From Calditrichia bacterium (GTDB lineage: Bacteria; Calditrichota; Calditrichia; JAJRVZ01): a DNA stretch of 58,187 nucleotides. The position numbers and the translations under genes are program-made. Under the pieces are notes generated by a model. It ran no database searches and was not told the origin of the DNA. It saw only the letters and a program-made list of their open reading frames with translations. Below, piece after piece: positions 4,803 to 58,187 of the stretch. Numbering within the stretch: position 1 is the first letter of the stretch; each line of letters opens with the position of its first letter. The DNA lies in NCBI GenBank assembly GCA_023132435.1, contig JAGLYF010000239.1, positions 1 to 58,187 on the forward strand, written 5' to 3'.

Positions 4803-4876
4803 CAGATTATTAATATAGATAAGATTGTACAAATTTTATTAACCAGAGTACTAAAATAATTTGGAGGATTAATTCG

Positions 4877-41011: not shown

Positions 41012-41096
41012 GCTGGAGTGGTGGAACCTGGTAGACACGCTATCTTGAGGGGGTAGTGCCCACGCGGGTGTGCGGGTTCAAGTCCCGCCTCCAGCA
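41012..41096 (+). tRNA. tRNA-Leu(GAG)
   Basis: Acceptor stem GCTGGAG/CTCCAGC, anticodon arm CTATC-TTGAGGG-GGTAG, long variable arm, GGTTCAAGTCC T-arm; CCA not encoded. Confidence 0.95.
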
Positions 41097-41101
41097 CTAA
41101 T

Positions 41102-41139
41102 AAAAACAAGGGTTTACAGCAACTGTAAATCCTTTTTTT
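41102..41139 (+). terminator. Hairpin/terminator after tRNA
   Basis: AAGGGTTTACAG-CAA-CTGTAAATCCTT followed by T run. Confidence 0.7.
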
Positions 41140-41162
41140 ATGCCTAAGAACCTACCGTATTT

Positions 41163-41192
41163 TGTGTCCTTTGTGTCCATAAATGTGTCCAT
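41163..41192 (+). repeat. Three TGTGTCC direct repeats, putative integrase arm-type sites
   Basis: TGTGTCC at 41163, 41172 and 41184 between tRNA and integrase. Confidence 0.6.
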
Positions 41193-41366
41193 ACCCATTT
41201 TTAATGAAAATCTTGTGAAAATCGGAACTAAGTAGCGTTTGAAAAGTGTAATGACTGGCTTAAGGAATACAAAATTCCCTTCAGAAATTCCCCTCACTTT
41301 CCTTATTCCGGTATTACTTTATCAAGATATTTTTAATATTCAAACCCATTGAATACGGGAGGTTTT

Positions 41367-42473
41367 ATGGCTTGCTTGGAAAAGCGAAATAAAAATTTAT
41401 ATCGACTTCGCTGGATTGAAAATGGTGAGCGGAAACAAAAAACATTTACGGCGGACAGCTATAAAGATGCTCTGGATAGTAAGCATCAGAAAGAAGAAGA
41501 ATTGCTGAGAATGAAAAGCAGCAATTTGCGATTGACAGAGATTTGGCATTTATATAAGCAAGCCCGACCAAGAAGAAATAATGAGAAACACGAAGAAGCA
41601 TTTATTAAAAGAGCAATTGAATTCTTCTCGGATTGTTTTTTATATGAAATCACGGAAAAATCCATTAACGAATATAAAATATGGTTACTGAAACAGACCA
41701 ATAAAAATTACAAAAAGAAAAAGGTGTTACTGTCTTCAACATATGCCAATGCCTGCCTAAAGAAATTGCAGGCGCTTTGGAATTTTGGCAGACAGCAAAG
41801 ATTAATAAATCGTGAGAACGATATATTTCTTGAATTTAAATTTCCGCCAGAGAACAAAAGGGAATTTGTTTTATCTCCACGAGAATTTAACCATCTATAT
41901 GAAACAACAAAAAATGAAAATCCTCTATATGCTGAATTTATGAAGCTGCTTATCCAAACGGGATGGAGAAGGGGAGAATTAGCGAAATTGCAATGGAAAG
42001 ATATTTATGATAAACACATTGTTCTGCGCAGCACAAAAGGTAAAGGGCAGGATGATTATTATCCATATTTCAGCTTTGTCAAAAGCACATTACAAAGGAT
42101 ATTTAAATTACAGAAGCGACATTCAAAATATATTTGGGCTGATGAAAAGGGCAGGCGTTTAGCCCAAGTAACAATAACCCGAATGGTTTCAAGATATATG
42201 AAAAAAGCAGGCTTTCCTGAAGGAGCAGCACACACTCTGAGGCATTCGTTTGCCACCAATGCACAGGCAAACGGATTAACCATATACGAAGCCAATTTGC
42301 TTTTACGGCAAAGCTCAATAAGAATGACCGAAAGATATACTCACCTAATTCCTGACCAAATTGATGAACGAAAGGTTGATTTCTTGAGGCGAGAAGAACC
42401 GACTTATGATATTAACAATGAAAAATATATGCCATATCCTTTTGCACCAAATATATTCCAGTCGGTAGAATAA
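41367..42473 (+). CDS. Phage-type tyrosine recombinase/integrase
   Basis: TGWRRGEL (R), TKG (K), HTLRHSFA (HxxR), MTERY (Y); SAM-like N-terminal domain; GGAGG before ATG 41367. Confidence 0.92.
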   Translation: MACLEKRNKNLYRLRWIENGERKQKTFTADSYKDALDSKHQKEEELLRMKSSNLRLTEIWHLYKQARPRRNNEKHEEAFIKRAIEFFSDCFLYEITEKSINEYKIWLLKQTNKNYKKKKVLLSSTYANACLKKLQALWNFGRQQRLINRENDIFLEFKFPPENKREFVLSPREFNHLYETTKNENPLYAEFMKLLIQTGWRRGELAKLQWKDIYDKHIVLRSTKGKGQDDYYPYFSFVKSTLQRIFKLQKRHSKYIWADEKGRRLAQVTITRMVSRYMKKAGFPEGAAHTLRHSFATNAQANGLTIYEANLLLRQSSIRMTERYTHLIPDQIDERKVDFLRREEPTYDINNEKYMPYPFAPNIFQSVE

Positions 42474-42528
42474 AAATAACATTTATGTTATACCCCCTAC
42501 TTTAGATCAATAATTTCATCAAGAATAT

Positions 42529-43128
42529 TTGAAATTTGATCCAAATTTTCGGCAAATCCCCGGTCTGTCTCAACCTTATAAATGGAAAAAACCAAAACGA
42601 ATATTTGTAAATTCAATGTCTGATATGTTCCACGATGATATTCCTGATGATTTTATTCAGCAGGTATTTGCCACAATGAATGAAACACCCCAGCATAATT
42701 ACCAAATACTGACCAAACGGTCGCAAAACATGTTAAACCTTTCCAAAGACCTGCTATGGACGGACAACATATGGATGGGCGTCACGGTCGAAAATGCAAA
42801 TTATGTTGACTGTATCGACCACCTTCGCCAGACAAATGCCAACATTAAATTCATTTGTTTTGAACCATTATTGGGCCCAATTAATAATTTAGATTTATCA
42901 GACATAGATTGGGCAATACTTGGCGGTGAATCCGGAATAAACGCACGACCAATGGAGAAAGAATGGGCTATTGATATAAAAAATCAAAGTGTTGGTAATA
43001 GAATACCGTTCTTTTTCAAGCAATGGGGCGGAAGAGACCGCCAGAAAGGCGGCCGAATAATGGAAGGCAGGACATGGGATGAGTATCCCCACGATTACAA
43101 AGCAGAAAAAATAAACGAATTCTTTTGA
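42529..43128 (+). pseudogene. N-terminally truncated DUF5131 (phage Gp37/Gp68) protein
   Basis: IFVNSMSDMFH, QILTKR, NIWMGVTVE, EPLLG, GGESG, FFFKQWGG; the usual WNP..GC...C..C radical-SAM N-terminus is missing and an in-frame TAA lies at 42511. Confidence 0.75.
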
Positions 43129-43279
43129 AAATGATGTCGATTTTTATATTTCCAGCTATTTATAAGTGTGTCATACATTAAATCTAAACCTTAAAACACC
43201 ATTTTAAAACCAGAACATTTAAAATATTTTTATCAAAATACAGCAAAGGATTGGGGCAACCATTGACTTGTTTCATGGC

Positions 43280-43326
43280 AATAGCCGACGGCCTTTTTAT
43301 CCTAATCCTTTCAGCCGTCGGCTATT
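43280..43326. promoter_or_regulatory. 13-bp inverted repeat in polymerase leader
   Basis: AATAGCCGACGGC...GCCGTCGGCTATT just upstream of the RBS. Confidence 0.55.
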
Positions 43327-43346
43327 TGTTTGAACGGAGAAATGCA

Positions 43347-44648
43347 ATGCAGCTTTATTTACCGGAAACGATTGACCTGACAAGAATTGACGACAAGAAG
43401 GCTTTCTTCTGCGATTATATTTATACTTACAGCTTCAGTCATAAAGAACAGCTGGCCGCAAAAAATAATAAAAATGGAATGTCTGGGGATATGATTGATG
43501 GATATAATTTGGGTGATTATAATTTTAAATTTTCTAATTATAGTTGTTCTAATTTAAATTTTTATAATAGCTCTTATTCTAATGTGGTTCATTCAGATCC
43601 AGTCCCCATTTATAGCCAGTATATGCGTTCTATTATTTCTGTTCACGATTACGGACGTGTTAAAACCGAGCTTATAAACGATGGTATAATAACCTGCGAT
43701 TGGTCATATAGCAATTTTGATGGTAATAAGAAAACCATGAGCTATTCATTGGTCGAACCACATTGCTATGCTTCCCCTACCATATATGAAATTCAAGGTA
43801 AACGTTTCATAGATAAATTGCATAGCATTAATCAATACTGGAGAAATAATTTGTCACCTCTGGAGAAAGCATTAGAAGCCAAATTATATGAAATTGAATT
43901 TGACGAAAAGGCTGCACACCAATTTTTACAGACAGAAGAATATGAAACCCCGGCAGCCCGAATAGCCCGTGAAAATACAATAAACATTATGTCCACGAAG
44001 AACCAGCTAAAATATAATTTAAGGCGAAGCCAAAAAGTGGGTCGGATTTTCACACCCGTGACCAGTTCTCCCAAAGACATGCGACAATTTTTTCAATATG
44101 ATGAACCATTGGTTGAAGTTGATATTTCTTGCGCCCTGCCTTTGCTGTTTAACAAATATTTGCTGAATGAAAACGCACCTGATGTTCAATTATACAGATG
44201 GCTAACGAGCGACGAAGGTGAAATTGATTTGTATGAATACTTAGGAACAGAAGTATGGCAAGAAGAATTTCCAATATGGAATGATGAAGTAAGAGACCAT
44301 ATAAAGATTTTAACGATGGTAATATTCTTCGGAAAACAAAATACCATTCGGGATCTACGGAGGAAATTTGAGCAGGAATTTCCAACGGTTAGCCGAGTGA
44401 TGAAAGAATTAAAAAAGAAAAATTATAAAATATTAGCGGAGGTATTAATGAAAGAAGAAAGTAATTTAATAATTGATGAAGTAAGTAAAGAAATACTTGA
44501 GGTCGAACCATATCGGCTATTATTAACAATTCACGACGCAATGATTGTACCTGAATCGTTTAGTGATGATGTGAAAAGGCGAATAATTAAAGCTGTTGAA
44601 AGACGGATAAATTTGACACCGAAGGTGAAAAATAAACGAATCAATTAA
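43347..44648 (+). CDS. Stand-alone family-A/T7-like polymerase palm protein (TV-Pol-like)
   Basis: GRIF, motif A VEVDISCA.P, motif B R.HIK...FFG, motif C LTIHDA; no exonuclease domains; GGAG before ATG 43347. Confidence 0.75.
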   Translation: MQLYLPETIDLTRIDDKKAFFCDYIYTYSFSHKEQLAAKNNKNGMSGDMIDGYNLGDYNFKFSNYSCSNLNFYNSSYSNVVHSDPVPIYSQYMRSIISVHDYGRVKTELINDGIITCDWSYSNFDGNKKTMSYSLVEPHCYASPTIYEIQGKRFIDKLHSINQYWRNNLSPLEKALEAKLYEIEFDEKAAHQFLQTEEYETPAARIARENTINIMSTKNQLKYNLRRSQKVGRIFTPVTSSPKDMRQFFQYDEPLVEVDISCALPLLFNKYLLNENAPDVQLYRWLTSDEGEIDLYEYLGTEVWQEEFPIWNDEVRDHIKILTMVIFFGKQNTIRDLRRKFEQEFPTVSRVMKELKKKNYKILAEVLMKEESNLIIDEVSKEILEVEPYRLLLTIHDAMIVPESFSDDVKRRIIKAVERRINLTPKVKNKRIN

Positions 44649-44699
44649 TGCTCAGTAATTACATGAGGTTAAAAAAATATAAAGGATTAGGAGAAAATT

Positions 44700-45395
44700 A
44701 TGAAACGAGGATTAGTAAGAACAACAAAATTAATTGAGAAATATGCCCCAGAAAGGCATTACAATTTTAATACCTACGACCAATATACAAACATTCAGGT
44801 TTGCAGCTCAAATGCCCTTCCAGAACACAAAAAGGTAAGTCCCATGAAATTGGGGCCCATTATTACCGGTGACCCTGATTTTCCGGAATGCAAAATAATG
44901 GAAAATTATTGGCAGTGGATGAAGGTACATAAATGTGAGGTGATATCATTACCACCGAAGAACAAAAACCTCACAAAATTCTTTAATTATCCCGATTTTG
45001 ATGATTCCCCCAATGAGGAATATTTCCAGAATCGGAAAAAATGGTTTACCACAACAAAGGCTGATTTAGATAGAATGCGAGAAGATAAAAAGAACCGACA
45101 AAATTTTATGTACTGCTGGTATGATGGCCAGAAGATTTATGATTATGTAACATGCCGAAAAGCATTTTACTGCCTTGTATATGCTCAATATGTTCAGGAT
45201 GAAGCAGCATATCAATTAATAAAGCAGCGGTTGGATAGTGGTGAAAATTTATGTTTGACAGGCTGGGACGCTTTTGAATGGTCAGAAGAAGCCGACCCTA
45301 ATTGCGTGGAAATAAAGGAAGTATTAAATGATAAGAATAAAGTATTCGGACATGAAATGGTTCTTGCGTCAATGCTAATGGGGAATCATATTTGA
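44700..45395 (+). CDS. Hypothetical protein, DUF6939/NADAR-like
   Basis: VSP..LGP, MENYWQ..KV, Y...RK..Y...Y, FGH..VLA; AGGAG RBS; family call is tentative. Confidence 0.5.
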   Translation: MKRGLVRTTKLIEKYAPERHYNFNTYDQYTNIQVCSSNALPEHKKVSPMKLGPIITGDPDFPECKIMENYWQWMKVHKCEVISLPPKNKNLTKFFNYPDFDDSPNEEYFQNRKKWFTTTKADLDRMREDKKNRQNFMYCWYDGQKIYDYVTCRKAFYCLVYAQYVQDEAAYQLIKQRLDSGENLCLTGWDAFEWSEEADPNCVEIKEVLNDKNKVFGHEMVLASMLMGNHI

Positions 45396-45401
45396 GAATA
45401 A

Positions 45402-45528
45402 TTGAAAATACGCCAACGTCCACCCATGTTTTAAAAAGTAATACATTCTTACGATTTACGGCAATTGACCGGCACAGGATTGAACGTGTGCCGATTTTGG
45501 CAAAGTCTTGCGGTGAGTTGCAAAGCAA
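45402..45528. repeat. ~127-bp dispersed repeat, copy A
   Basis: Close match to 55898-56024. Confidence 0.85.
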
Positions 45529-45631
45529 ATACCAGCACGAAGTATTGGCTTAGGATGTTGGTAATTTGTGTGTTATTCTGTTTCACGCAACAGTTCTATG
45601 CCTTGTTTCGTTAGGTGATAAAAATTGTAAT

Positions 45632-46117
45632 TCAAAATTGTCCCGGAAATGATTCAGATGTATTAATTATTTTCCAAGCGCCATTACGATATACGTATAG
45701 CGTTGTATATGTACCAATCATCTTTTCCTCAACTCCCGAATTCAACGTCGCATCCCAATCGAATCTCTGAGTAACAATTACCGTATTTCGGTTAATAACG
45801 TCAATATATCGCTCAATTGTCTTTGCCTCAGCTCTTGTGTAAATGACCGTATGTGCTTTGACTGTATCAGAAAAGGCATTCCATGAACGTGCAATAAAGC
45901 CATTAGCGGCAAATGTATATTCCTCACTATTCAGGTAGTAGCCTAAGTATCGATCATATTCTTGATTATTCCATGATTCAAATAGCTCGTTTGATAATCT
46001 TTCAATTTCTTGCCTGATTGCACTTTTTTCGGTTTCTGTTAATAATGCTTCATGGTCTTGACATGAGAATAATGTGGACAAAATTGAGAGAACTACACAA
46101 ATTCTTAATACTATCAT
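45632..46117 (-). CDS. Lipoprotein with NTF2/SnoaL-like domain (gene cassette 1)
   Basis: Lipobox LFSC, C-terminal GAWKII; bounded by GTTAGGT/ACCTAAC core sites; GGAG before ATG 46117. Confidence 0.75.
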   Translation of the reverse strand: MIVLRICVVLSILSTLFSCQDHEALLTETEKSAIRQEIERLSNELFESWNNQEYDRYLGYYLNSEEYTFAANGFIARSWNAFSDTVKAHTVIYTRAEAKTIERYIDVINRNTVIVTQRFDWDATLNSGVEEKMIGTYTTLYVYRNGAWKIINTSESFPGQF

Positions 46118-46483
46118 TTTTCTCTCCACGTTTATACCTAAATTTTTAGCACCTAACATTAATTCGGCGGACGAAACGCCCTGTTATAATAAGTGTAATT
46201 ATAACTGAAATTTATGGTACTTCTTGGAAATATAGTATGCGACATAGCACTTTTAGGCGGAAGTAATGCAATATAAAACCGTGTCATTGGATACAGTCCT
46301 ATAGTAAATGACTATCCAAATCAAAAATATCAAAAAAAACTGTCATGTCAAATAAAAATTTGTCAAAATTAACTGAACGATATATCAAGTAACTATCCCG
46401 AATAAGTCGCCCAACATTGAGATACATTGATAATAATATAAAATAATCATCTGAAAGCAAAGAAAATATTTTAGTTTCGAAAT

Positions 46484-46546
46484 ATAAAAGCGGTTGAAAA
46501 AAGAATTAATTTAACACCGAAGGTGAAGAGTGAAAGGGTAAATTAA
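46484..46546 (+). pseudogene. Remnant 3' end of a second polymerase gene copy
   Basis: Translates IKAVEKRINLTPKVKSERVN* versus IKAVERRINLTPKVKNKRIN* at 44586-44648. Confidence 0.75.
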
Positions 46547-46705
46547 AAGATCAACTTATAGCCGGAAGGTTCCGTTAATTTTCTTTATTTTTTTGACGGC
46601 GACTACTTCAACTAATGAGTCAAAGAACGAAATACGAAAAAATGTAATTTTATCGTAATAGGATACTATTTTCTCTTGACTTTGAAGGACATGTATATGA
46701 TAGAC
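46547..46705. repeat. Inter-cassette ~250-bp repeat, partial copy 1
   Basis: Matches the right part of 48249-48497; ends GGACATGTATATGATAGAC. Confidence 0.8.
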
Positions 46706-47493
46706 TATTTATTTATTTGTTCCCAACCTGATGCTAAAATCCAATGTTCAAATTTTAAGTGTTTTCTTATATTAGTATCAACACGTATTAGCAGACCAAA
46801 ATTATTGTTTTCTTTAATGTATTTAACAATTTTAGGATCAGGTTCCATTAATTTTGGTGTGGAGTGAATTGGTTTAAAACCAATTACATAAATTATTTCA
46901 TCTGATTTATCTTCTAGAAGTTCAACAAACATCCCAATCTTATCCATGACAATTCCAAAAGCGATGGAGCCAGTAAATCTTTCGAGAATAACATGAAGAT
47001 GTTCAAAATTGACATTATTTGTATGGTAATAAAATGATTTTAAATAAATATGAATTAACGAATCATCGATAGATTTAATCTTCGAGCTTTCCCAATCAAC
47101 TGTAAATATAGATTTTATTTTATGGCTTGAGGGGATAACAATATTGTTATCGGTTGAAAATAGAAAATAACCCATTGGATACTTAGTTTTTAAACTGTCA
47201 TAATCTATTATTATGTTAAGGTGCATTCTTTCTAGCATGAAAAGCATTTTGTTCTGTTGTTCAAGAGTCGCAACTTCAGATTGAAGGCTTATTAAGTTCT
47301 CTTGGAGTGAATTAATATATTGATCATTTGAGTATACCACTACGATATTTACTATAACTGCAATGGCGATAACAAACATTAATATTATTCTAGTATTCTT
47401 GTATCGTTTTGTTCTTCTATCGGGCCAAAAATGATCTAAAACAAGTGTTAAAAATGCTATAAAACCAAGAAAGATTGGTAAAAGAATACTCAT
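46705..47493 (-). CDS. Hypothetical membrane protein (gene cassette 2)
   Basis: Two N-terminal TMs and coiled coil; GAGGAG RBS; GTTAGAC core site upstream. Confidence 0.7.
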   Translation of the reverse strand: MSILLPIFLGFIAFLTLVLDHFWPDRRTKRYKNTRIILMFVIAIAVIVNIVVVYSNDQYINSLQENLISLQSEVATLEQQNKMLFMLERMHLNIIIDYDSLKTKYPMGYFLFSTDNNIVIPSSHKIKSIFTVDWESSKIKSIDDSLIHIYLKSFYYHTNNVNFEHLHVILERFTGSIAFGIVMDKIGMFVELLEDKSDEIIYVIGFKPIHSTPKLMEPDPKIVKYIKENNNFGLLIRVDTNIRKHLKFEHWILASGWEQINK

Positions 47494-47511
47494 CTTTTCT
47501 CCTCAAAAAAA

Positions 47512-47740
47512 GTCTAACATATAAGCGAGCGAAATGAATTCTTAAATCAAGGTCAACTTCAGTACAATTAGATTAACTTTTCTGCCATCACTTAACAAGT
47601 ATAATTTATTAATTTTTAATTGATCCGGCGATTTTCTTTAATTTTGAGTGCGACTCAAAGAACAAAACTCAAAAAAATGTAAATTTATCGTGATGGAATA
47701 TTATTTTCTGTTGAGTTAATAAGGCAAATACATGCTATGT
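47512..47740. repeat. Inter-cassette ~250-bp repeat, copy 2
   Basis: Starts GTCTAACATATAAG; aligns with 48249-48497 with a 16-bp internal deletion and a degenerate right end. Confidence 0.85.
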
Positions 47741-47777
47741 ACAATTTTAGATAATATAACCATTTCCAAATATAACT

Positions 47778-48206
47778 TTAATGCAAACGTACACAGCTTA
47801 AAACTTCGTCTTGAGATGTTCTAATATCAAGAATTCTATCTATTTCTACCCCAGAAGAATCGGTTGATAAATTTACTTCAGATTGGGGAGGTAGGGTTTC
47901 TATACAGGCATAACATAATAATTCCGCAGTGACATTATCACAACTAGAATTTATGCGTTCGACTAGTATATTTAAATTTTCTCCGTGACCAAACTTGTCA
48001 CCAGAGATTTTATCAGGATGTAAATCGGAAAGCAATTTTGTGATTTCTGAACAGACAATTTTTGAATCCGTATTAATTATCCCAAGTTGTAGATTATCAC
48101 AATTTGGTTGGTCGAAATCAGTATCGAAAATCTTTTTACATGTTGAAATATAGCAACAGAGAATGAGTGTAATTATGAGTGTCAATTTTTTATTCTGACT
48201 AAACAT
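47778..48206 (-). CDS. Cys-containing putative lipoprotein (gene cassette 3)
   Basis: Signal peptide ending STC, CYACIET.PPQSE motif; GGAGG RBS. Confidence 0.7.
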   Translation of the reverse strand: MFSQNKKLTLIITLILCCYISTCKKIFDTDFDQPNCDNLQLGIINTDSKIVCSEITKLLSDLHPDKISGDKFGHGENLNILVERINSSCDNVTAELLCYACIETLPPQSEVNLSTDSSGVEIDRILDIRTSQDEVLSCVRLH

Positions 48207-48248
48207 AAATCCTCCAAATCACAAAGGACTTTCATCATATCATCATGC

Positions 48249-48497
48249 ACCTAACATATAAGTAAATGAGATGAGTCTTTATATCAAAATCAACCGCATT
48301 ACAATTAGATTAACTTTTCAGATATCATTTCACAAGTAAGTATTTTATAAATTTTCAATTGATCCGCCGATATTCTTTATTTTTGGTGGCGACTAGTTCA
48401 ACTATTGAGTCAAAGAACAAAATAACGAAAAAATTTATTTTATATCGTAATGGAATACTATTTTCTGTTGAGTTTAAAGGACATGTGTATGTTAGGT
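48249..48497. repeat. Inter-cassette 249-bp repeat, complete copy 3, with terminal inverted core sites
   Basis: ACCTAACATA...TATGTTAGGT, 10-bp terminal inverted repeat. Confidence 0.85.
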
Positions 48498-48584
48498 AAA
48501 GTTGCGGACTTATTGCCGCTTGTGATCATTTTTGGCCTTCAAACTTTGGTTTTATTTTAAATAATATACAACTTTTTATGCTCC

Positions 48585-49205
48585 CTAAGAAACTTGCTGT
48601 TTGTATGATTTATAATGACTTAAAAATAGAAAAAGCCATCCCAGCACCAATAATATCATAACGTGTATCGGGCTAGCAGTTGGCGTTCCTTCAAGGGCTT
48701 TCAAGAAAGGTTGGCCAGCTATTCCGCAGATATACCACGCTGCAATCAACATAAACACATAACCAACCAGTTTAAAATCTGCTGCTGTTGCGGACGCATC
48801 CTTCAGAGCCATTCGTTCTTTAGCCCATAACCAGAGTATTCCGAGGAAGAGCAGCAAGATCAAGGTTCCACCGATACCGAACAACGGGGGGATATGTCCT
48901 AAGGATCCAATTGTCATGCCGATAATAATCGCCAGAAATATTCCTATTCCATATTTCCATACCGTCGATCCTTTTGCGCCTGAATAGAGTAATAATCCAA
49001 TCCCGGCTACTAACGCCCCCAGTGGAACCCCGAAAGACCATAACAAAGTCCAAGTTCCCATGAATGCCCACATCGTCTGATTAAGCTCATCCATTGTTAA
49101 ATTTTTGAAAGCCGAACCCACAAAAATCGACCCAATCACCCCCCAGAGAATTGCCCAGATAACGGCTATCCCGAATAGTACCAAGCCAACTTTTTGTTTA
49201 GTCAT
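48585..49205 (-). CDS. Hypothetical multi-pass membrane protein (gene cassette 4)
   Basis: About six TMs, AAGGAGG RBS, minus-strand GTTAGGT at 49312-49318 upstream. Confidence 0.75.
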   Translation of the reverse strand: MTKQKVGLVLFGIAVIWAILWGVIGSIFVGSAFKNLTMDELNQTMWAFMGTWTLLWSFGVPLGALVAGIGLLLYSGAKGSTVWKYGIGIFLAIIIGMTIGSLGHIPPLFGIGGTLILLLFLGILWLWAKERMALKDASATAADFKLVGYVFMLIAAWYICGIAGQPFLKALEGTPTASPIHVMILLVLGWLFLFLSHYKSYKQQVS

Positions 49206-49652
49206 TTTGCTTTCCTCCTTTTATGAAATTAATTATCAACCACGATTGTTATTTTTGTCCTTTTCCTGATAAATAATTTCCGACGGAAAACAGAAAAAGA
49301 TAATTTTGCCCACCTAACAAATAAGTGAGCCGAATGGATACATACATCATTCCAAATTCCATAACTTCTTATACATCACTAAAACTATTACTCGGATAGG
49401 ATTTAATTTTATCGTCTTTGTCAAACAGAATATTAATAATAGAAGCAGTTTTATCAGAACCGAAGGCGACGCAAATGATATTATAAAAATATCCTTTAAA
49501 ATGAAAGTAATTTTGGGAATGTATATGATAAAAATATTATTGCGATTTCTTCGATAGTTAGGTAGCTTCAATTGTACTGTTTCTATATTCTTATTCTGCT
49601 ATTTAATAACATAAGATAACTGGTCTTTCATAGTAAATCAGGCGATCAGACT

Positions 49653-52037
49653 ATGGTAGGCAAAACCATATCACACTACAAGATCATTGAACGCATCGGC
49701 ACCGGTGGCATGGGCATCGTCTATAAAGCCCAAGACCTCAAACTTGATCGTTTCGTCGCTCTTAAATTCTTACCACCACAACTGACCACCAGCGAAGAAG
49801 AGAAACAACGCTTTATTCATGAAGCCAAAGCAGCATCTTCTTTAGACCACAATAACATCTGCGCTATTCATGAAATAGATGAAACTGAGGAAGGGCAGTT
49901 GTTCATCAGCATGGCTTACTATGAAGGCGAAACGTTAGACAAAAAGATTAAAGATAAGCCATTACCGGTTGAAGAGGCAATCGACATCACTATCCAGATA
50001 GCACAGGGTCTTACCAAAGCGCATGAGAAAGAGATTGTGCATCGAGATATTAAACCGGCGAACATCATGCTGACGAAGGAAGGTGTAGTCAAGGTTCTTG
50101 ATTTTGGTTTAGCAAAGCTTTCTACGCAAACAAAGCTGACCAAAGAATCGACCACATTAGGCACTGTTTCTTATATGTCTCCGGAACAGGCGAAAGGCGA
50201 GGAAGTTGATTATAGAACAGATATTTGGTCTTTAGCCGTCATCCTCTATGAGATGCTGACCGGGCAACTTCCTTTTAGAGGCGACTATGAATCTGCTGTT
50301 ATTTATTCCATCCTAAATGATTTGCAGGAGCCAGTCACCGCATTGCGCACTGGTGTGCCGATGGAATTGGAACGCATCGTTAATAAATGTCTTCAAAAGA
50401 GCCCGTCAGATCGGTATCAACATATTGATGAATTGATCGTCGATTTGCGAGGTCTGAGAAGAGAATCTGAGTCAACTATTATTCCATCTAAAGAAGAAAA
50501 ACAAAAGAAGCGTTCTAAATATGTTATCATGTCAGTAGCAGTTTTATCAATTTTAATTCTTATTATCGCTGGATACTTCATTTTGATACAACCGAGTGAA
50601 AAAAGTGTATCAGGCTGGGAAAATTCGATTGCTGTTTTGCCTTTTGCCGATCTGAGTCCCAATAAAGATCAGGAATACTTTTGTGATGGTATGACTGAAC
50701 AGATCATTACAAATCTGAGCAAGATAAATCGGTTAAAAGTAATTGGTCGAACCTCTGTTATGTCATACAAAAACACAGATAAAAAACTGCCTGAGATCGG
50801 GAAAGAATTAAATGTTTCACATATCTTGGAAGGAAGTATCAGGAAATATGGCAATAGTATCAGAGTGACAGCACAGTTAATTAACACAGAAGACGGCTCT
50901 CACATATGGGCGGATGACTTTGATAGGGAATTAGAGCATGTCTTTGAGGTTCAGGACGATATATCTGAAATGATTTCAGGAGTATTGCTACAGAAATTAT
51001 CCGTCGAAGAAATAGGAGAAGTTAAATCCCAAAAACCGCAGAATATTGAAGCTTGGGAATATTATCTGAAAGGAAAATATTTTCATATAAATAAATTTAT
51101 AGATGCAACCGGGAGCATGGATGATTTTAATACATCTGAGCTGATGTTAAAAAAGGCTATTGAACTCGATCCAAATTATGCTCCCTCGTATGCAGCTCTG
51201 GCTGATCTTTATAACTCATATTACAATATTGAGGCACAAAATGAAGATGAGAAGAAAAAATATCTTGATTTACAAGAGAAATATATCGAGACAGCGTATA
51301 ATTTAGATCCCAATTCAGCTGATGTATACTCGATTATGGGATATGTTCATGAGGCAAAAGGTGAACTAAAAAAAGCTTATGAAAGCTTCAAAAAAGCGAT
51401 TTTGATCCAACCCAATTGGTGGGAACCCCATTATTCCTTGGCCGACTTCTATAATAGTCGAGGCCTTTACCATTTAGCTATTAAATACCGTACCAAAGCC
51501 ATAGAATTAAATCCTTTATACCCATCATCTTATGTTAGACGCTCTATTTATTTCTCTTATATAGGAGAACTTAATAAAGCCGAGATAGATTTGCAGAAAG
51601 CTTTGGAGATTAATCCAGATCACCGGACGGCTACTGGTTATTATGGATATATATTGATCTTATTGGAAAAATATGATGAGGCAGAGATAATCATAACAAA
51701 ACGAGAAAAAATTCATCCTAATTCAAGTTCAAATTCACTCCTGAGAGCTTGTTTATCTGCTGCGAAGGGTGAAAGAGTAAAAATGCCTGAGATAAATATT
51801 AGTGCTTTTTATAAGTCCAGACTCTATCTTTTATTAAAAATGAGGGAAGAAGTTATACAGTATTTGAATGAGGATTTTGAGATACTAAAAAAATCAGAAG
51901 GATCAAGATATTTATGGCTGAAGAATCAACCATTATGCGATTTTCTCCGCTCCGACCCCCGCTTCCAAGAAATATTGGCAACACACAAAGAAATTTATGA
52001 AGAGAATTTGGCGAAGTATGGGGATATTGATATATGA
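49653..52037 (+). CDS. Hanks-type Ser/Thr protein kinase with TM, TolB_N-like (SIAVLPF) and TPR domains
   Basis: GTGGMG, VALK, HRDIKPAN, DFG, YMSPEQ; SIAVLPFADLS; TPRs. Confidence 0.93.
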   Translation: MVGKTISHYKIIERIGTGGMGIVYKAQDLKLDRFVALKFLPPQLTTSEEEKQRFIHEAKAASSLDHNNICAIHEIDETEEGQLFISMAYYEGETLDKKIKDKPLPVEEAIDITIQIAQGLTKAHEKEIVHRDIKPANIMLTKEGVVKVLDFGLAKLSTQTKLTKESTTLGTVSYMSPEQAKGEEVDYRTDIWSLAVILYEMLTGQLPFRGDYESAVIYSILNDLQEPVTALRTGVPMELERIVNKCLQKSPSDRYQHIDELIVDLRGLRRESESTIIPSKEEKQKKRSKYVIMSVAVLSILILIIAGYFILIQPSEKSVSGWENSIAVLPFADLSPNKDQEYFCDGMTEQIITNLSKINRLKVIGRTSVMSYKNTDKKLPEIGKELNVSHILEGSIRKYGNSIRVTAQLINTEDGSHIWADDFDRELEHVFEVQDDISEMISGVLLQKLSVEEIGEVKSQKPQNIEAWEYYLKGKYFHINKFIDATGSMDDFNTSELMLKKAIELDPNYAPSYAALADLYNSYYNIEAQNEDEKKKYLDLQEKYIETAYNLDPNSADVYSIMGYVHEAKGELKKAYESFKKAILIQPNWWEPHYSLADFYNSRGLYHLAIKYRTKAIELNPLYPSSYVRRSIYFSYIGELNKAEIDLQKALEINPDHRTATGYYGYILILLEKYDEAEIIITKREKIHPNSSSNSLLRACLSAAKGERVKMPEINISAFYKSRLYLLLKMREEVIQYLNEDFEILKKSEGSRYLWLKNQPLCDFLRSDPRFQEILATHKEIYEENLAKYGDIDI

Positions 52038-55897: not shown

Positions 55898-56024
55898 TTG
55901 AAAATACGCCACTGTCCGCCAATGTTTCAATAAGTAATACATTCTTACAATTTACGGCAATTAAACCGACAGGATTGAAGTGTGTGCCGATTTTGGCAAT
56001 TTCTTGCGGTGAGTGGCGAAGCAA
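55898..56024. repeat. ~127-bp dispersed repeat, copy B
   Basis: Close match to 45402-45528. Confidence 0.85.
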
Positions 56025-56051
56025 CAACGGCCTCTGGGAAAATAATTGCTG

Positions 56052-56474
56052 TTATGGGTTGGTTTTGTTTTGTGTTATTTCGTTATGAGTTTTTAGAAGA
56101 TTCTTTTTCTTCATGAAGTGACTTATAATAAAAAGAATACCTACAACAACGAATGGGAAAGTAATCGTTAGGATGATCCCAAGGCTCATGCCGACAGAAT
56201 GGTTCATATTATAATTATGCATAAAGATAATTGGGCTCAGTCCAAGACCTATTACTGTAAAGATGATACCACCAATATATTCCCATTTCCATGCAACAAT
56301 AAGTAAGGCTAGTAAAATAAAAGATGGAATAAGATGCATCAAAAAACCGCCAAGTTGTTGCCAGATGGTTAGCCCGGGTGCAAAAGAATCAGCTGCAAAC
56401 ATACTGATAAAAAGTATTGCAAGAATACAGACAACTCGTGGGAGCCAATGAATTACGCTGATAGACGTTTTCAT
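56052..56474 (-). CDS. Hypothetical four-TM membrane protein (gene cassette)
   Basis: WLPR..CILAILFISMFA; stop codon lies within the inverse core site CCATAAC. Confidence 0.8.
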   Translation of the reverse strand: MKTSISVIHWLPRVVCILAILFISMFAADSFAPGLTIWQQLGGFLMHLIPSFILLALLIVAWKWEYIGGIIFTVIGLGLSPIIFMHNYNMNHSVGMSLGIILTITFPFVVVGILFIISHFMKKKNLLKTHNEITQNKTNP

Positions 56475-56614
56475 TATTTTTCCATTTTAATTTTGTCCTA
56501 CTCGTATGGCTTTTCGGTGTCGCCCCGTTTTTTTAGTGGTTGCTGGTCTCCACATTTTATTTATTGTTGGTGCTTGTGTCTGTCAGTGTACGCTTTGTTG
56601 TTTTATAAACTTGC

Positions 56615-56702
56615 ACATAACGTTTCGCGGATATGAGAAGTCCGAGTGAAGCGAGGATTTGGGCGAAAGCCGAAGGCTGTAGCCTCATATCCGCTGTTAT
56701 AT
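56615..56702 (-). mobile_element. Integron attC site (88 bp)
   Basis: Minus strand ATATAAC-A-GCGGATATGAG...CTCATATCCGC-GAAAC-GTTATGT imperfect palindrome between co-oriented genes. Confidence 0.85.
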
Positions 56703-56798
56703 GACCCGAAGGGCAAGGTTGCGAAGCAACCGCAGAGTTCCGAACCCCGCCACATTCTTTGCTATTTTCCAACATTTCAATCTCATCTCCTCATAAAT

Positions 56799-57395
56799 TT
56801 ATCTTAGAAAAATGATGCGGAAAGCTAAAAATGCGATCACTCCCGGGGTCAAAAGAATTAACGACTTCCATCTATTTATCTTATTTTGTTTATGAATGAA
56901 TTCTGACACATAAGCAATATCAATAATTAAACATATTGGATGAATAACCATCAAGAATGGCAAATTCCATGTAAAACTCAACAAATCTGCAGGAACAGCT
57001 AGTAAGCCTATTGTATTCCAGATGAACATAAAAAATAGAAACACTTTTTTGATATTAACTTCATAAAGTTGTAAAATTTTAGAAGTAGCATAGATTACGA
57101 CACCGAAAATAAGAAAGTCTATCACATTGACTAAGGCATCATTTATACCATACAAAAAATACTGGTTGTCAGAGATTGGGAGTATTTTGAGAAATACTGA
57201 TGTTTGTGAGAGGTATAATGATAAAAACACATAAAACGTTACAAAAATGGTCAGCGGAACAATGCCGTATAGTAGCGAGGACTCACTAAGAAAATTATCT
57301 ATCAACAACCTGGGTTTAGAAAATGCCATTGCCATGTAACTTATATTTCTTCTAAGTGAATAATTTTTCATAGTTCTTCCCAATTCGTTCCCCAA
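56799..57395 (-). CDS. Yip1-like multi-pass membrane protein (cassette gene)
   Basis: About five TMs, AF.KP N-terminal motif; start may be 57371. Confidence 0.6.
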   Translation of the reverse strand: MGNELGRTMKNYSLRRNISYMAMAFSKPRLLIDNFLSESSLLYGIVPLTIFVTFYVFLSLYLSQTSVFLKILPISDNQYFLYGINDALVNVIDFLIFGVVIYATSKILQLYEVNIKKVFLFFMFIWNTIGLLAVPADLLSFTWNLPFLMVIHPICLIIDIAYVSEFIHKQNKINRWKSLILLTPGVIAFLAFRIIFLR

Positions 57396-57439
57396 GCATA
57401 TTTTAGGAGTCTTTCTGTCGAAAATTTCTCATCCATTTT

Positions 57440-58051
57440 CTATCTCCATAGTATTGCACATATCACAACCCATAAAATTATTATTACCATAATGCTGATG
57501 ACTTTCTCCGACCATTTCAATCTGCAGATATTAGATATAATACTTGTTGCGGCAAGACTTTCCCACAAAAGTATAATGGTATGTATTGGAATGATGAGTA
57601 AGCTAATCCAGCCAACAGTAAATCTCACGAATATATCAACAGGTTGCACAATTACGAAAGGAAGGAAGAAGGTAACTCCGAGTATGTTGAATATTTTAAA
57701 AATCGATATATCTTTCTTTATCAATCGCAAATAACTAGATAAAACGAAGGTTATAGAACCCATAACAAAAATACCAAATAATAAAGAGAACTGTGTTTGT
57801 AGGAAGGCGTACGTTTCCAAATCAATACCAAATGGCGGAGGTGCAAATGGCTTCCAATTACCATGATAATCACGGAAGGAAAATATAATCGAATAACTAA
57901 GCCATCTTATAACGATAAACAACCACCCATATTTGTTTACAATCAAGAGCCCTTTTGGATTTTTGAGAAATGAGTCTGGAGCAAATACAGATTGGTATAG
58001 TGCTTTTAACATACTATCTTCCTTGGATAATATACTTGCAACCTTGTTCAT
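57440..58051 (-). CDS. Yip1-like multi-pass membrane protein (cassette gene)
   Basis: About five TMs, similar layout to the neighbouring gene. Confidence 0.65.
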   Translation of the reverse strand: MNKVASILSKEDSMLKALYQSVFAPDSFLKNPKGLLIVNKYGWLFIVIRWLSYSIIFSFRDYHGNWKPFAPPPFGIDLETYAFLQTQFSLLFGIFVMGSITFVLSSYLRLIKKDISIFKIFNILGVTFFLPFVIVQPVDIFVRFTVGWISLLIIPIHTIILLWESLAATSIISNICRLKWSEKVISIMVIIILWVVICAILWR

Positions 58052-58151
58052 AGATTTTTATTTCGTTTATCATAGCAATTTCTCCTTCCAAAACTTAAGT
58101 TTTCCATATAATGAAAGGCTTTCCTTTTTAAAAGCAAGGGTTCGGAATTTC

Positions 58152-58187
58152 AAATAACGTTCAGTATAAGAATAGTAGCCGATTGCG
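58152..58187 (-). mobile_element. Partial attC site cut by window end
   Basis: Minus strand ...CGGCTACTATTCTTATACTGAAC-GTTATTT upstream of the cassette genes. Confidence 0.6.

What the first reader, a model, noticed from the sequence alone, without database searches (positions are those of the whole stretch)
45610..49340. Cassette array in which a ~250-bp double-ended repeat replaces attC
Seen: four co-oriented minus-strand genes each start after GTTAGGT or GTTAGAC (46151, 47512, 48249, 49312). Three of them end in the matching inverse core site (45610, 46699 degenerate GTCTATC, 48491), with start and end sites complementary per cassette as in integron cassettes. Between them there is no GC-rich attC hairpin. 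Instead there is a conserved AT-rich unit (46547-46705 partial, 47512-47740, 48249-48497) whose complete copy is 249 bp and bounded by ACCTAACATA...TATGTTAGGT. Established: described attC sites are roughly 55-140 bp and fold through L boxes. Inference: the unit is a giant attC, a pair of back-to-back attI-like simple sites (each gene then flanked by inverted sites and invertible, shufflon-like), or a non-autonomous element that captures cassettes at both ends.
Basis: partly seen in the sequence, partly recalled or inferred. Interest (0 to 1): 0.85.

Follow-up and report, generated by a model that had tools for sequence, protein, structure and literature searches.

The report
Integron cassettes joined by scar repeats
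Four small genes sit in an integron-type gene-cassette array whose usual folding recombination sites have been replaced by a 230-260 bp mosaic made of an insertion-sequence end and an attI-like site, an unusual variant of known integron biology and not a giant attC.

Summary
Four co-oriented minus-strand ORFs (45632-49205) are separated by a conserved AT-rich unit that starts at an inverse core (xxCTAAC) and ends at a core site (GTTAGxx).

The unit is not an attC. Ten copies fold no better than shuffles, with z from -1.37 to +1.21. Canonical attCs of the same lineage fold at about z -3.

The unit is a mosaic:
- **Left part.** The R'' of the upstream cassette is followed by the terminal 85-130 nt of an IS1111-family insertion sequence. 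An empty and an occupied copy of one attC in a relative show that this stretch belongs to the IS.
- **Right part (about 130 nt).** It ends in the lineage's attI simple site, CACTCACTTATAT|GTTAG. That motif matches 17 of 18 bases of the true attI next to the remnant intI of this genome, and 17 of 18 of the attI of a relative.

Relatives carry bona fide IntI and classical arrays. This genome holds only a 49-codon intI remnant.

At least 10 full copies lie between different genes, in this genome and in seven metagenome contigs. Orientation relative to the genes is constant.

The closest known things are IS1111-attC insertions and the "delta-attI-type" cassettes of mobile integrons.

The giant-attC and shufflon readings are not supported. 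The MITE reading is weakened because the unit has only one IS end. Recombination activity is untested.

The parts
49312..49565 (-). Head of the array ('u4'). It is a different repeat whose gene-proximal end (..GGCTCACTTATTT|GTTAGGT, crossover at 49312-49318) is attI-like. Its distal part, including an ACCTAAC at 49557-49563, belongs to a conserved region upstream of the divergent kinase gene and is not an R''.
   Evidence: Homologues are C299:24771-24844, C106:1202-1246 and C220:8287-8324. The end matches the attI 18-mer with 3 mismatches.
48585..49205 (-). Cassette ORF c1, 206 aa, predicted membrane protein. Starts after GTTAGGT and ends before ACCTAAC.
   Evidence: No Pfam, PHROG or NCBIfam family.
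48249..48497 (-). Full 249-bp unit u3. R'' ACCTAAC at 48491-48497, IS1111-type end (A-part) at about 48409-48490, centre at about 48381-48408, attI-like B-part at 48256-48380, core GTTAGGT at 48249-48255.
   Evidence: The A-part is 81% identical over 90 nt to the IS of C302 (E 1.5e-18). Fold z is -0.53 and +0.15.
47778..48206 (-). Cassette ORF c2, 142 aa.
   Evidence: No family.
47512..47740 (-). Full 229-bp unit u2, with a degenerate R'' (ACATAGC, 47734-47740) and core GTTAGAC at 47512-47518.
46705..47493 (-). Cassette ORF c3, 262 aa. Starts after GTTAGAC. Its stop overlaps the matching inverse core GTCTATC.
46571..46705 (-). Half unit: R'' GTCTATC (46699-46705), the IS-end A-part and part of the centre. 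There is no B-part.
   Evidence: nhmmer profile positions 124-253. It is 83% identical over 87 nt to the IS of C302.
46371..46546 (.). Filler made of two other repeats. 46478-46546 is a copy of the last 69 nt of the 465-aa ORF (43251-44648), on the + strand. 46371-46473 is the 'X' repeat that also precedes isolated B-parts elsewhere.
   Evidence: (D3).
46151..46369 (-). A genuine attI region. It is homologous to the whole spacer between intI and the first cassette of relative G007. The crossover is at GTTAGGT 46151-46157, and intI itself is missing.
   Evidence: Local alignment score 57 against 13.2 +/- 1.8 (max 19) for 300 shuffles. BLAST gives 64% over 219 nt, E 1.7e-19.
45632..46129 (-). 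Cassette ORF c4, 165 aa from the ATG behind the GGAGAG ribosome-binding site. There is a weak SnoaL-like match below the cut-off. It is the first cassette behind the attI of 46151-46369.
45539..45617 (-). Degenerate copy of the lineage's AT-rich canonical attC ('T-type'), with R'' ACCTAAC at 45611-45617. It ends the array.
   Evidence: Copies are at C220 (3), C299, L062, L065, L080 (2) and L091. A good copy folds at z -3.07 and this one at z -1.22. Contigs of 4 of 4 laid runs diverge at 45613-45615.
45396..45538 (.). 'S' repeat between the last attC and the convergent gene 44700-45395. It is also found at 55898-56024.

Best explanation
The region is a remnant integron cassette array (a cluster of cassettes without a local integrase). 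The inter-cassette sites are recurrent mosaics and not attC hairpins.

Reading along the genes, each unit is built as follows:
1. The inverse core R'' (xxCTAAC) of the upstream cassette's former attC.
2. Directly abutting it, the right end of an IS1111-family insertion sequence. This is 85-130 nt and includes its 12-bp subterminal repeat.
3. A short centre.
4. A conserved, unstructured module of about 130 nt. Its last 18 nt are the attI simple site of this bacterial family, ending at the G|TT crossover in front of the next cassette.

Proposed history and mechanism:
- **Step 1 (shown in a relative).** The IS inserts, guided by its RNA, just behind R'', antisense to the cassettes. This splits the attC.
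- **Step 2 (inferred).** A deletion or recombination replaced the rest of the IS and the attC stem with an attI-type module.
- **Step 3 (inferred from the flanks).** IntI supplied in trans used the attI-type end as a double-stranded insertion or exchange site. As a result, many different cassettes begin at exactly the same nucleotide.
- **Step 4 (inferred).** The mosaic spread to other cassettes, either by recombination between IS ends or by attI x attI-type exchange.

Today the sites are probably fossil or only weakly active, because this genome holds only a 49-codon intI remnant.
For: **1. Integron context**
- IntI scores 456-477 bits (cut-off 265) in 5 of 10 family genomes.
- In G001, intI, an attI and GC-rich attCs of about 95 nt with xxCTAAC...GTTAGRY lie in the classical layout.
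- G000 itself has an in-frame deleted intI (C319:4351-4494). Its attI (..CACTCACTCATAT|GTTAGAA) and canonical attCs are on the contig that overlaps C319 by 25 nt.

**2. The left part is an IS end**
- Three identical IS copies in G001 (372-aa transposase, PF01548 and PF02371 type) start right after CTAAC.
- One cassette is present twice, once with an empty attC (..CCCTAAC AATACAATCAAGCGG..) and once with the IS between CTAAC and TACAATCAAGCGG.
- The IS has perfect 12-bp subterminal repeats and a noncoding region of 310-370 nt downstream of the transposase gene.
- Units match this end at 76-82% over 87-93 nt, and C299a at 82% over 61 nt.
- In G000, complete IS copies and the units share the sequence up to ..TTCTTTGACT and then diverge.

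**3. The right end is attI-like**
- The 18-mer CACTCACTTATATGTTAG occurs 7 times in the genome with up to 2 mismatches, against 0.35 expected.
- Six of these are unit ends and the seventh is the true attI.
- The attI ends of G001, G003 and G008 are alike.
- This part is unstructured (z +1.79). That suits a site that acts double-stranded, which is recalled knowledge about attI.

**4. Sharp boundaries and varied neighbours**
- Pairwise identity is 0.81, 0.77 and 0.81 inside the unit, and 0.29 and 0.39 outside.
- The 10 aligned copies have dissimilar flanks on both sides.

**5. No attC fold**.

**6. Agreement with print**
- Passages of PMC3001079 say IS1111-attC elements sit near the 5' end of attC, antisense to the cassettes.
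- Passages of PMC11187229 give the family features.
Against: - Only the last 18-25 nt of the right part are demonstrably attI-like. The other roughly 100 nt and the centre match nothing in 41 relatives or in 86 genomes of the class, so their origin is unknown.
- No copy was found next to an intact intI. tblastn with IntI found none in the 41 fetched public loci.
- The spread to many cassettes has no demonstrated mechanism.
- In two metagenome contigs (L062, L084) the right part stands alone behind a complete attC or behind another right part, like an ORF-less cassette. It may therefore be a mobile cassette in its own right and not a piece of an integron platform.
- One of 7 single-ORF cassettes (L065) does not show start/end complementarity.
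- The genome is a 360-contig metagenome bin. Local order rests on assembly through 75-85% identical repeats. A 1720-nt contig of run X1 bridges c3, unit u2 and c2 without a difference, but X1 may be the source sample.
Confidence: 0.62

Rival explanations
1. The unit is a complete non-autonomous derivative (MITE) of the IS1111-family element. It would be mobilised in trans into attC sites. The attC stem behind it would then have been removed by IntI acting on an attI-like site at the element's end.
For: - The left part is an authentic IS end at the authentic insertion point.
- Complete IS copies exist in the genome (C302, C125).
- The unit is multi-copy with sharp ends.
- Longer composites starting with the same IS end lie inside canonical attCs in L080 and L086.
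Against: - The left-end subterminal repeat (TTTAAAGGACAA) is absent from the right half in 10 of 10 units, even allowing 3 mismatches. The full IS copies of C302 and G001 have both repeats.
- According to passages of PMC11187229, both IS ends are needed for movement.
- No unit is followed by an attC remainder (0 of 10).
- The right part also occurs joined to other left partners: the X repeat, a complete T-type attC, and another right part.
Confidence: 0.15
2. The unit is a functional, very long attC. R'' and R' would pair, and the roughly 230 nt between them would form an oversized variable loop.
For: - The ends are inverse and direct core sites, extended to a 10-bp inverted repeat in u3.
- There is a possible second stem (GTCCTTTAAAGTCAAGA with TCTTGATATAAAGAC, two bulged bases), seen by eye in u3 and in C302.
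- Cassette-wise complementarity of the outer bases holds in 6 of 7 cassettes.
Against: - No excess folding energy appears in 10 of 10 units on either strand. Canonical attCs of the lineage give z -2.9 to -3.1 in the same test.
- The candidate second stem is the IS subterminal repeat on one side. On the other side it is a minority variant, since most copies read TATAATGAC there.
- The terminal complementarity is equally expected as a relic of the former attC.
- u2 lacks a good R''.
Confidence: 0.1
3. Each gene is flanked by inverted recombination sites and is inverted by a recombinase (shufflon-like). Alternatively, the repeat is a purely regulatory intergenic module, promoter plus terminator, with no recombination role.
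For: - Inverted 7-10-mers flank each ORF.
- The right part is strongly conserved (0.81) and always 20-110 nt upstream of a start codon.
- It contains two conserved core-like direct repeats, GTTAATC and GTTGAYC, 20 nt apart. The first is intact in 8 of 10 copies and altered in C220 (ATTGATC) and L086a (GTTAGTC). The second is present in 6 of 10, and the other four read GTTGATT, GTTGACT, GTTGGTC or GTTAGTC.
Against: - No copy was found in the opposite orientation in any contig.
- No strand-change joint appears among the 15 joints shown by read laying.
- The sigma-70 promoter scan gives 26 hits against 22.9 +/- 5.5 expected, with none in the right part on the gene strand. It finds 0 terminator-like sites.
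- The ends coincide with integron crossover points and with an IS insertion point, which a purely regulatory module would not explain.
Confidence: 0.05

Closest known systems
IS1111-attC group insertion sequences (ISPa21, ISPst6, ISKpn4) in integron arrays
   Same: - DEDD transposase (PF01548 and PF02371), 12-bp subterminal inverted repeats, and a long noncoding region downstream of the transposase gene.
- Site- and orientation-specific insertion at the 5' (R'') end of attC, antisense to the cassettes.
- This matches passages of PMC11187229 and PMC3001079.
- "Footprints" of such IS in Pseudomonas arrays are recalled from the abstract of Tetu and Holmes 2008. That paper is not held in the library.
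   Different: - In the window only one IS end survives. It is fused to an attI-type module, and this same fusion recurs between many different cassettes.
- The host is an uncultured bacterium whose DNA is held by runs labelled cold seep metagenome, not a Pseudomonas or a clinical integron.
- The terminal extensions beyond the subterminal repeats are longer (about 6-7 and 10-12 nt) than the 3 and 7 nt quoted for the family.
[quoted passage not shown] 2026, PMC12901181; abstract, section 5 and passages read)
   Same: - The attC behind an ORF is replaced by a stretch of attI that ends at the crossover. The paper reports 14-18 nt, and once 244 nt.
- This gives attC-ORF-delta-attI or attI-ORF-delta-attI architectures. 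The paper shows them to be recombined by IntI1.
   Different: - Here the R'' of the old attC and an IS end are retained in front of the attI-like stretch.
- The module is about 130 nt, and only 18-25 nt of it are recognisably attI.
- It is the prevailing junction of a chromosomal array, with at least 10 copies, and not a rare variant.
- Activity is untested.
- The paper's supplementary table could not be consulted.
Canonical attC sites of sedentary chromosomal integrons (e.g. Vibrio cholerae repeats; recalled)
   Same: - Repeated, mutually similar sites between co-oriented promoter-less cassettes.
- They are bounded by RYYYAAC and GTTRRRY.
   Different: - No stable hairpin and no L-box pairing.
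- Twice the usual length.
- Mosaic origin.
Group IIC-attC introns
   Same: They are another class of element that targets attC sites antisense to the cassettes (abstract and passage of PMC3001079).
   Different: No intron RNA or reverse transcriptase is present here. Rfam found no family in 45000-50000 beyond one chance-level snoRNA hit.

Membership tests
Integron gene-cassette array (cluster of cassettes lacking integrase) | Co-oriented, closely spaced short ORFs, each with its own ribosome-binding site | tested here: met
   There are four minus-strand ORFs of 142-262 aa. No Pfam hit reaches the cut-off, and there are no PHROG or NCBIfam hits.
Integron gene-cassette array (cluster of cassettes lacking integrase) | Cassette boundaries at G|TTRRRY, with a complementary RYYYAAC behind the ORF | tested here: met
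   - Homology of all unit copies starts at CTAAC and stops after G/TTA.
- The outer two bases are complementary in 6 of 7 single-ORF cassettes.
Integron gene-cassette array (cluster of cassettes lacking integrase) | Folding attC sites between cassettes | tested here: not met
   - The units do not fold.
- Only the terminal site 45539-45617 is a canonical attC, and it is degenerate (z -1.22).
Integron gene-cassette array (cluster of cassettes lacking integrase) | Integron integrase in the lineage | tested here: met
   - Five of 10 family genomes are above the TIGR02249 cut-off.
- There is none in the window.
- There is only a 49-codon remnant in this genome.
attC site (as a description of the 249-bp unit) | Imperfect hairpin of one strand with paired R and L boxes | tested here: not met
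   - z ranges from -1.37 to +1.21 for 10 units on both strands.
- Controls: 8 of 8 G001 attCs have negative z. Three canonical sites give z -2.94 to -3.07.
attC site (as a description of the 249-bp unit) | R'' and R' inverse core sites at the ends | tested here: met
   The site is degenerate in u2.
IS1111 family insertion sequence (full copies C302, C125 and G001 x3) | DEDD transposase with the IS110-type C-terminal domain | tested here: met
   PF01548 at 45.2 bits and PF02371 at 65.3 bits. Identity between the G000 and G001 proteins is 81%.
IS1111 family insertion sequence (full copies C302, C125 and G001 x3) | Subterminal inverted repeats of 11-13 bp and a long noncoding region downstream of the transposase gene | tested here: met
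   TTGTCCTTTAAA and TTTAAAGGACAA are perfect in C302 and G001. There are 310-370 nt between the transposase stop and the IS end. The definition is taken from passages of PMC11187229.
IS1111 family insertion sequence (full copies C302, C125 and G001 x3) | One specific target | tested here: met
   All 5 full copies follow xxCTAAC of an attC. There is an empty/occupied pair in G001.
Non-autonomous IS1111 derivative / MITE (as a description of the unit) | Both IS ends present | tested here: not met
   - The right-end repeat is present with up to 2 mismatches in 7 of 9 units that have the left part.
- The left-end repeat is absent in 10 of 10.
Delta-attI-type cassette junction | A stretch of the cognate attI directly 5' of the crossover, in place of the attC 3' arm | tested here: met
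   - 17 of 18 bases are identical to the attI of G000 (C202) and to that of G001.
- 7 genomic hits against 0.35 expected.
Delta-attI-type cassette junction | Recombined by the integron integrase | not testable with these tools
   Needs an in vivo or in vitro assay.
Shufflon / invertible cassette | Segments found in both orientations | tested here: not met
   Orientation is constant in all contigs. No strand-change joint is among the 15 shown. The laid runs are contigs, which drop rare variants.

The most novel reading that the evidence does not exclude
The mosaic is a working hybrid recombination site, not a scar. An attI-type, double-stranded site has taken over from folded attCs as the inter-cassette site of a chromosomal array. 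Cassettes would then move as gene + R'' + IS end + attI-like module, by attI x attI or attI x attC exchange with an IntI supplied in trans.

The roughly 130-nt right part, which also occurs alone as an ORF-less cassette in L062 and L084, would be a mobile "portable attI". It might carry accessory IntI-binding repeats (GTTAATC and GTTGAYC) or a promoter, and it would seed new insertion points inside arrays and next to ordinary chromosomal genes (C302, C299, C77).
Probability: 0.2. Interest if true: 0.7.

Novelty: new variant of a known kind. Interest (0 to 1): 0.45.

Why it matters
Integron cassettes are thought to depend on folded single-stranded attC sites. Arrays without them are usually read as dead.

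Here an environmental lineage carries many cassettes whose only intact recombination signal is an attI-type site welded to an IS end. The same weld recurs between different genes in at least two related populations.

If these junctions are active, the recently described delta-attI-type cassettes of clinical integrons would extend to chromosomal integrons of uncultured bacteria. It would also show a route by which IS1111-type elements remodel arrays instead of merely disrupting them.

There is a practical consequence as well. A search that relies on a model of the folded attC would be expected to miss these cassettes (inference; IntegronFinder was not run). Arrays of this kind may therefore be under-counted.

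If the junctions are inactive, the locus is a well-documented example of array decay.

Tried and rejected
- **Rfam** on 45000-50000 at E up to 5 gave only a chance-level snoRNA hit.
- **A strict palindrome search** for CTAAC...GTTAG pairs genome-wide gave 14 rows, that is 7 places each listed on both strands. Only one of them is the unit. The search was too strict to find canonical attCs.
- **A loose search** for "empty" CTAAC(0-14)GTTA sites gave 152 uninformative matches.
- **The idea that the X repeat holds an intI 5' remnant.** tblastn with four IntI proteins found nothing there, so I dropped it.
- **Whole-B homology to attI regions of relatives.** BLAST found only a 22-nt match, so the claim is restricted to the last 18-25 nt.
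- **X+B in other genomes.** It was not found outside G000 in the 86 genomes of the class that were searched, apart from 5 weak hits of 30-66 nt.
- **The 18-mer scan of genome contigs.** It returned 8 loci from unrelated taxa, none with the unit, so these were chance matches. Of 33 metagenome loci, 7 held the unit.
- **A direct repeat of the tRNA-Leu 3' end** that would delimit an island behind the 41349 integrase: none longer than 11 nt.
- **Sigma-70 promoter and terminator scan:** not above shuffles.
- **Read laying** used assembled contigs only. It shows that the repeat modules are multi-copy in four runs, and that contigs diverge at 45613-45615. It cannot show circles, rare inversions or absence of anything. 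Bins without cover in X2, X3 and X6 are not evidence.
- **No IntI or IS transposase** is encoded in the 41 fetched public loci.
- **The taxon** of the genome was not determined.
- **Unavailable sources.** Tetu and Holmes 2008 (PMC2447020) is not held, so statements about it are recalled or taken from other papers' passages. Supplementary files were not opened, and Table S1 of PMC12901181 may list junctions closer to this one.
- **Print searches** for a description of this mosaic were. Nothing closer than the papers cited was listed.

Full report
**What is there**

Between 45611 and 49565 the window carries four co-oriented minus-strand ORFs:
- c1, 48585-49205
- c2, 47778-48206
- c3, 46705-47493
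- c4, 45632-46129

Each ORF is preceded, on its own strand, by GTTAGGT or GTTAGAC. Three are followed by the matching inverse site, and the fourth by a degenerate one.

Between c1/c2 and c2/c3 lies a conserved AT-rich unit of 249 and 229 bp. Between c3 and c4 only its gene-distal half is present. None of the four proteins reaches a Pfam cut-off or matches any PHROG or NCBIfam family.

**The repeat is a family with sharp ends**

A profile of four copies finds 11 hits in the 3.7-Mb, 360-contig genome. It finds 12 hits in seven metagenome contigs that are 78-96% identical to pieces of this genome but carry other genes.

In nine aligned full copies the pairwise identity is 0.81, 0.77 and 0.81 in the left, centre and right parts. 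It is 0.29 and 0.39 in the flanks. Homology begins at CTAAC and ends right after G/TTA. Orientation relative to the neighbouring ORFs is the same in every contig.

**The context is an integron**

- Five of ten genomes of the family encode an integron integrase at 456-477 bits on TIGR02249 (cut-off 265). The same model rings in none of 14 control genomes at that threshold.
- In G001 the layout is classical. There is intI, then an attI ending ..CCACTCACTTTTAT|GTTAGGC, then cassettes separated by GC-rich attCs of about 95 nt running from xxCTAAC to GTTAGRY.
- The window's own genome has no intact intI.
- Contig C319 holds an in-frame remnant: about 15 N-terminal and about 34 C-terminal codons, the C-terminal 35 aligned residues 77% identical to G001's IntI.
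- C319 overlaps by 25 nt the end of C202. On C202 an attI (..CACTCACTCATAT|GTTAGAA), a 280-aa cassette and canonical attCs follow.
- The window itself holds a well-folding canonical attC at 56618-56710, in a second array.

**The unit is not an attC**

| Sequence folded as DNA | z-score |
|---|---|
| u3, the two strands | -0.53 and +0.15 |
| Ten units, both strands | -1.37 to +1.21 |
| Eight canonical attCs of G001, top strand | -0.66 to -5.05 |
| Eight canonical attCs of G001, bottom strand | -1.45 to -3.78 |
| Window 56612-56716 | -3.05 |
| T-type attC of C220 | -3.07 |
| G001 attC | -2.94 |
| Right part of the unit alone | +1.79 |

The three canonical sites show the expected paired R boxes, open spacer and L stem.

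**The left part is the end of an IS1111-family element**

- In G000, three copies of the left part stop at ..TTCTTTGACT. In two of them (C302, C125) they continue into an IS with a 352-aa transposase (PF01548, PF02371) on the opposite strand, behind about 370 nt of noncoding DNA. The third (C17) shares only about 250 nt of that noncoding region.
- G001 has three identical copies of the related IS (81% protein identity) inside its array.
- One G001 cassette is duplicated. One copy has the intact attC ..CCCTAAC AATACAATCAAGCGG... The other has the IS between CTAAC and TACAATCAAGCGG, and the rest of the attC is unchanged.
- So the stretch that follows CTAAC belongs to the IS. It also contains one of the two perfect 12-bp subterminal repeats.
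- These features fit what is printed for IS1111 and its attC-targeting subgroup: subterminal repeats, a noncoding region downstream of the transposase gene, and insertion at the 5' end of attC antisense to the cassettes (passages of PMC11187229 and PMC3001079).
- The units match this IS end at 76-82% over 87-93 nt, and C299a at 82% over 61 nt.
- They lack the other subterminal repeat in 10 of 10 copies, so they are one-ended.

**The right part ends in the family's attI site**

- The last 18 nt, CACTCACTTATAT|GTTAG, are identical at 17 of 18 positions to the true attI of this genome and to that of G001. They resemble those of G003 and G008.
- With up to two mismatches the 18-mer occurs seven times in the genome against 0.35 expected. 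Six hits are unit ends and one is the true attI.
- Behind the G the sequences differ from copy to copy (TTAGGT, TTAGAC, TTAGGC, TTAGGG, TTAGCT, TTAAGC, TTATAC, TTATGT). This is expected if cassettes were inserted there at the G|TT crossover.
- The remaining roughly 100 nt of the right part and the centre have no match in 41 relatives or in 86 genomes of the class. They carry two core-like direct repeats, GTTAATC and GTTGAYC. The first is intact in 8 of 10 copies and the second in 6 of 10; the other copies show close variants.

**The other junctions of the array**

- The head of the array (49312-49385) ends in a related attI-like sequence.
- The stretch 46151-46369 in front of c4 is homologous to the entire spacer between intI and the first cassette of G007, up to the crossover. 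The local score is 57 against 13.2 +/- 1.8 in shuffles. However, intI is replaced by other repeats.
- The array ends in a degenerate copy of an AT-rich canonical attC family ('T-type') found in eight further copies.
- The right part also occurs behind a conserved 'X' repeat at the start of arrays next to ordinary chromosomal genes (C302, C299, C77).
- In L062 and L084 it occurs on its own, behind a complete attC or behind another right part.

**Reading**

The unit is a mosaic junction: R'' of a former attC, then the right end of an IS1111-type element, then a centre, then an attI-type module.

Step one, IS insertion behind R'', is shown. The fusion, the use of the attI-type end by IntI and the spread of the mosaic are inferred.

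The complementarity of cassette starts and ends holds in 6 of 7 cassettes, including the informative AC/GT and GC/GC cases. It is what a former attC would leave behind, so it does not argue for a folding site.

The closest published analogue of the right-hand junction is the delta-attI-type cassette of class 1 and 2 integrons. In those, 14-18 nt (once 244 nt) of attI replace the attC and IntI1 still recombines them (PMC12901181, abstract and section 5).

**Population data**

- One run holds 95% of the sampled words. It may be the source sample.
- Contigs of four runs from four studies were laid.
- The repeat modules reach 4-20 times the depth of the ORFs.
- Contigs of all four runs diverge at 45613-45615, inside the R'' of the terminal attC.
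- A 1720-nt contig of the best holder bridges c3, unit u2 and c2 without a difference.
- Among the 15 joints shown none is a strand change, and nine were not shown.
- Contigs cannot show rare circles or inversions.

**The nearby integrase**

The ORF at 41349-42473 sits 250 nt behind tRNA-Leu (41012-41097). It matches phage integrases (phrog_1, 139.7 bits) and scores 44.6 bits on the integron-integrase model against a cut-off of 265. It is not the array's recombinase.

**Verdict**

- The giant-attC and shufflon readings are not supported, and the MITE reading is weakened.
- Novelty: a new variant of known kinds (an IS1111-attC scar plus a delta-attI-type junction), recurrent in a chromosomal array of an uncultured bacterium.
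- Whether the sites still recombine is open.

Noticed in passing
window 55898-58187: There is a second minus-strand cassette array: ORFs 56052-56474, 56799-57395 and 57440-58051. It has a canonical attC at 56618-56710 (R'' ATATAAC, R' GTTATGT, fold z -3.05). It also has a copy of the 'S' repeat at 55898-56024, abutting a convergent 344-aa ORF with a weak DnaD/replication-initiator-like match.
   Followed up: partly
window 41012-45395: tRNA-Leu(gag) is followed by a phage-type tyrosine integrase (41349-42473), a DUF5131 protein (42529-43128) and two ORFs without any family (465 aa and 231 aa). This looks like the remnant of an integrative element that ends against the cassette array. No att repeat was found.
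   Followed up: partly
window 45396-45538 and 55898-56024; L080 and L086: The 'S' repeat (about 140 nt, 84-87% identical between copies) follows the last attC of both arrays in the window. In two metagenome contigs it lies between the IS end and the 'X' repeat, inside a canonical attC. Its nature is unknown, and Rfam found nothing.
   Followed up: partly
window 44580-44648 and 46478-46546; L080 (gene-oriented 1700-1770): The last 69 nt of the 465-aa ORF recur (77%) as an isolated fragment next to the IS-end half unit, and again in a metagenome contig. This suggests that this gene once travelled with the IS-ended composite.
   Followed up: no
G001:C19:139990-140087 and 151291-152954 (L038, L039): The same cassette and attC are present twice in one array, once empty and once occupied by the IS. 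This natural before-and-after pair fixes the IS boundaries to within the shared CA.
   Followed up: yes
G000:C319:4351-4494 and C202 (reverse strand, last 240 nt): The genome's own intI is an in-frame internal deletion leaving 49 codons (N-terminal about 15 plus C-terminal about 34). Its attI and first cassettes are intact on the neighbouring contig.
   Followed up: yes
G000:C319 about 4810-4830; L031 (G004) and L032 (G006) intI-attI spacers: Palindromes of the type GTGAACGATCGTTCACA recur in the spacer between intI and attI in three genomes. This may be an operator controlling intI. It is a lead only.
   Followed up: no
G000:C302:3352-4076, C299:19185-19872, C77:113-485, C94:11690-11868: A repeat of about 725 nt ('X' plus the attI-like right part, including the 3' end of a small lipoprotein-like ORF) stands at the start of at least three arrays, next to ordinary chromosomal genes. 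It was not found in 86 genomes of the class.
   Followed up: partly
window 48290-48320 (right part of the unit) and all aligned copies: Two core-like direct repeats, GTTAATC and GTTGAYC, lie 20 nt apart, about 62 and 42 nt upstream of the crossover. They are conserved or nearly so in the 10 copies (intact in 8 and 6, close variants in the rest). They are reminiscent of the accessory integrase-binding repeats of attI1, a comparison that is recalled and not tested.
   Followed up: no
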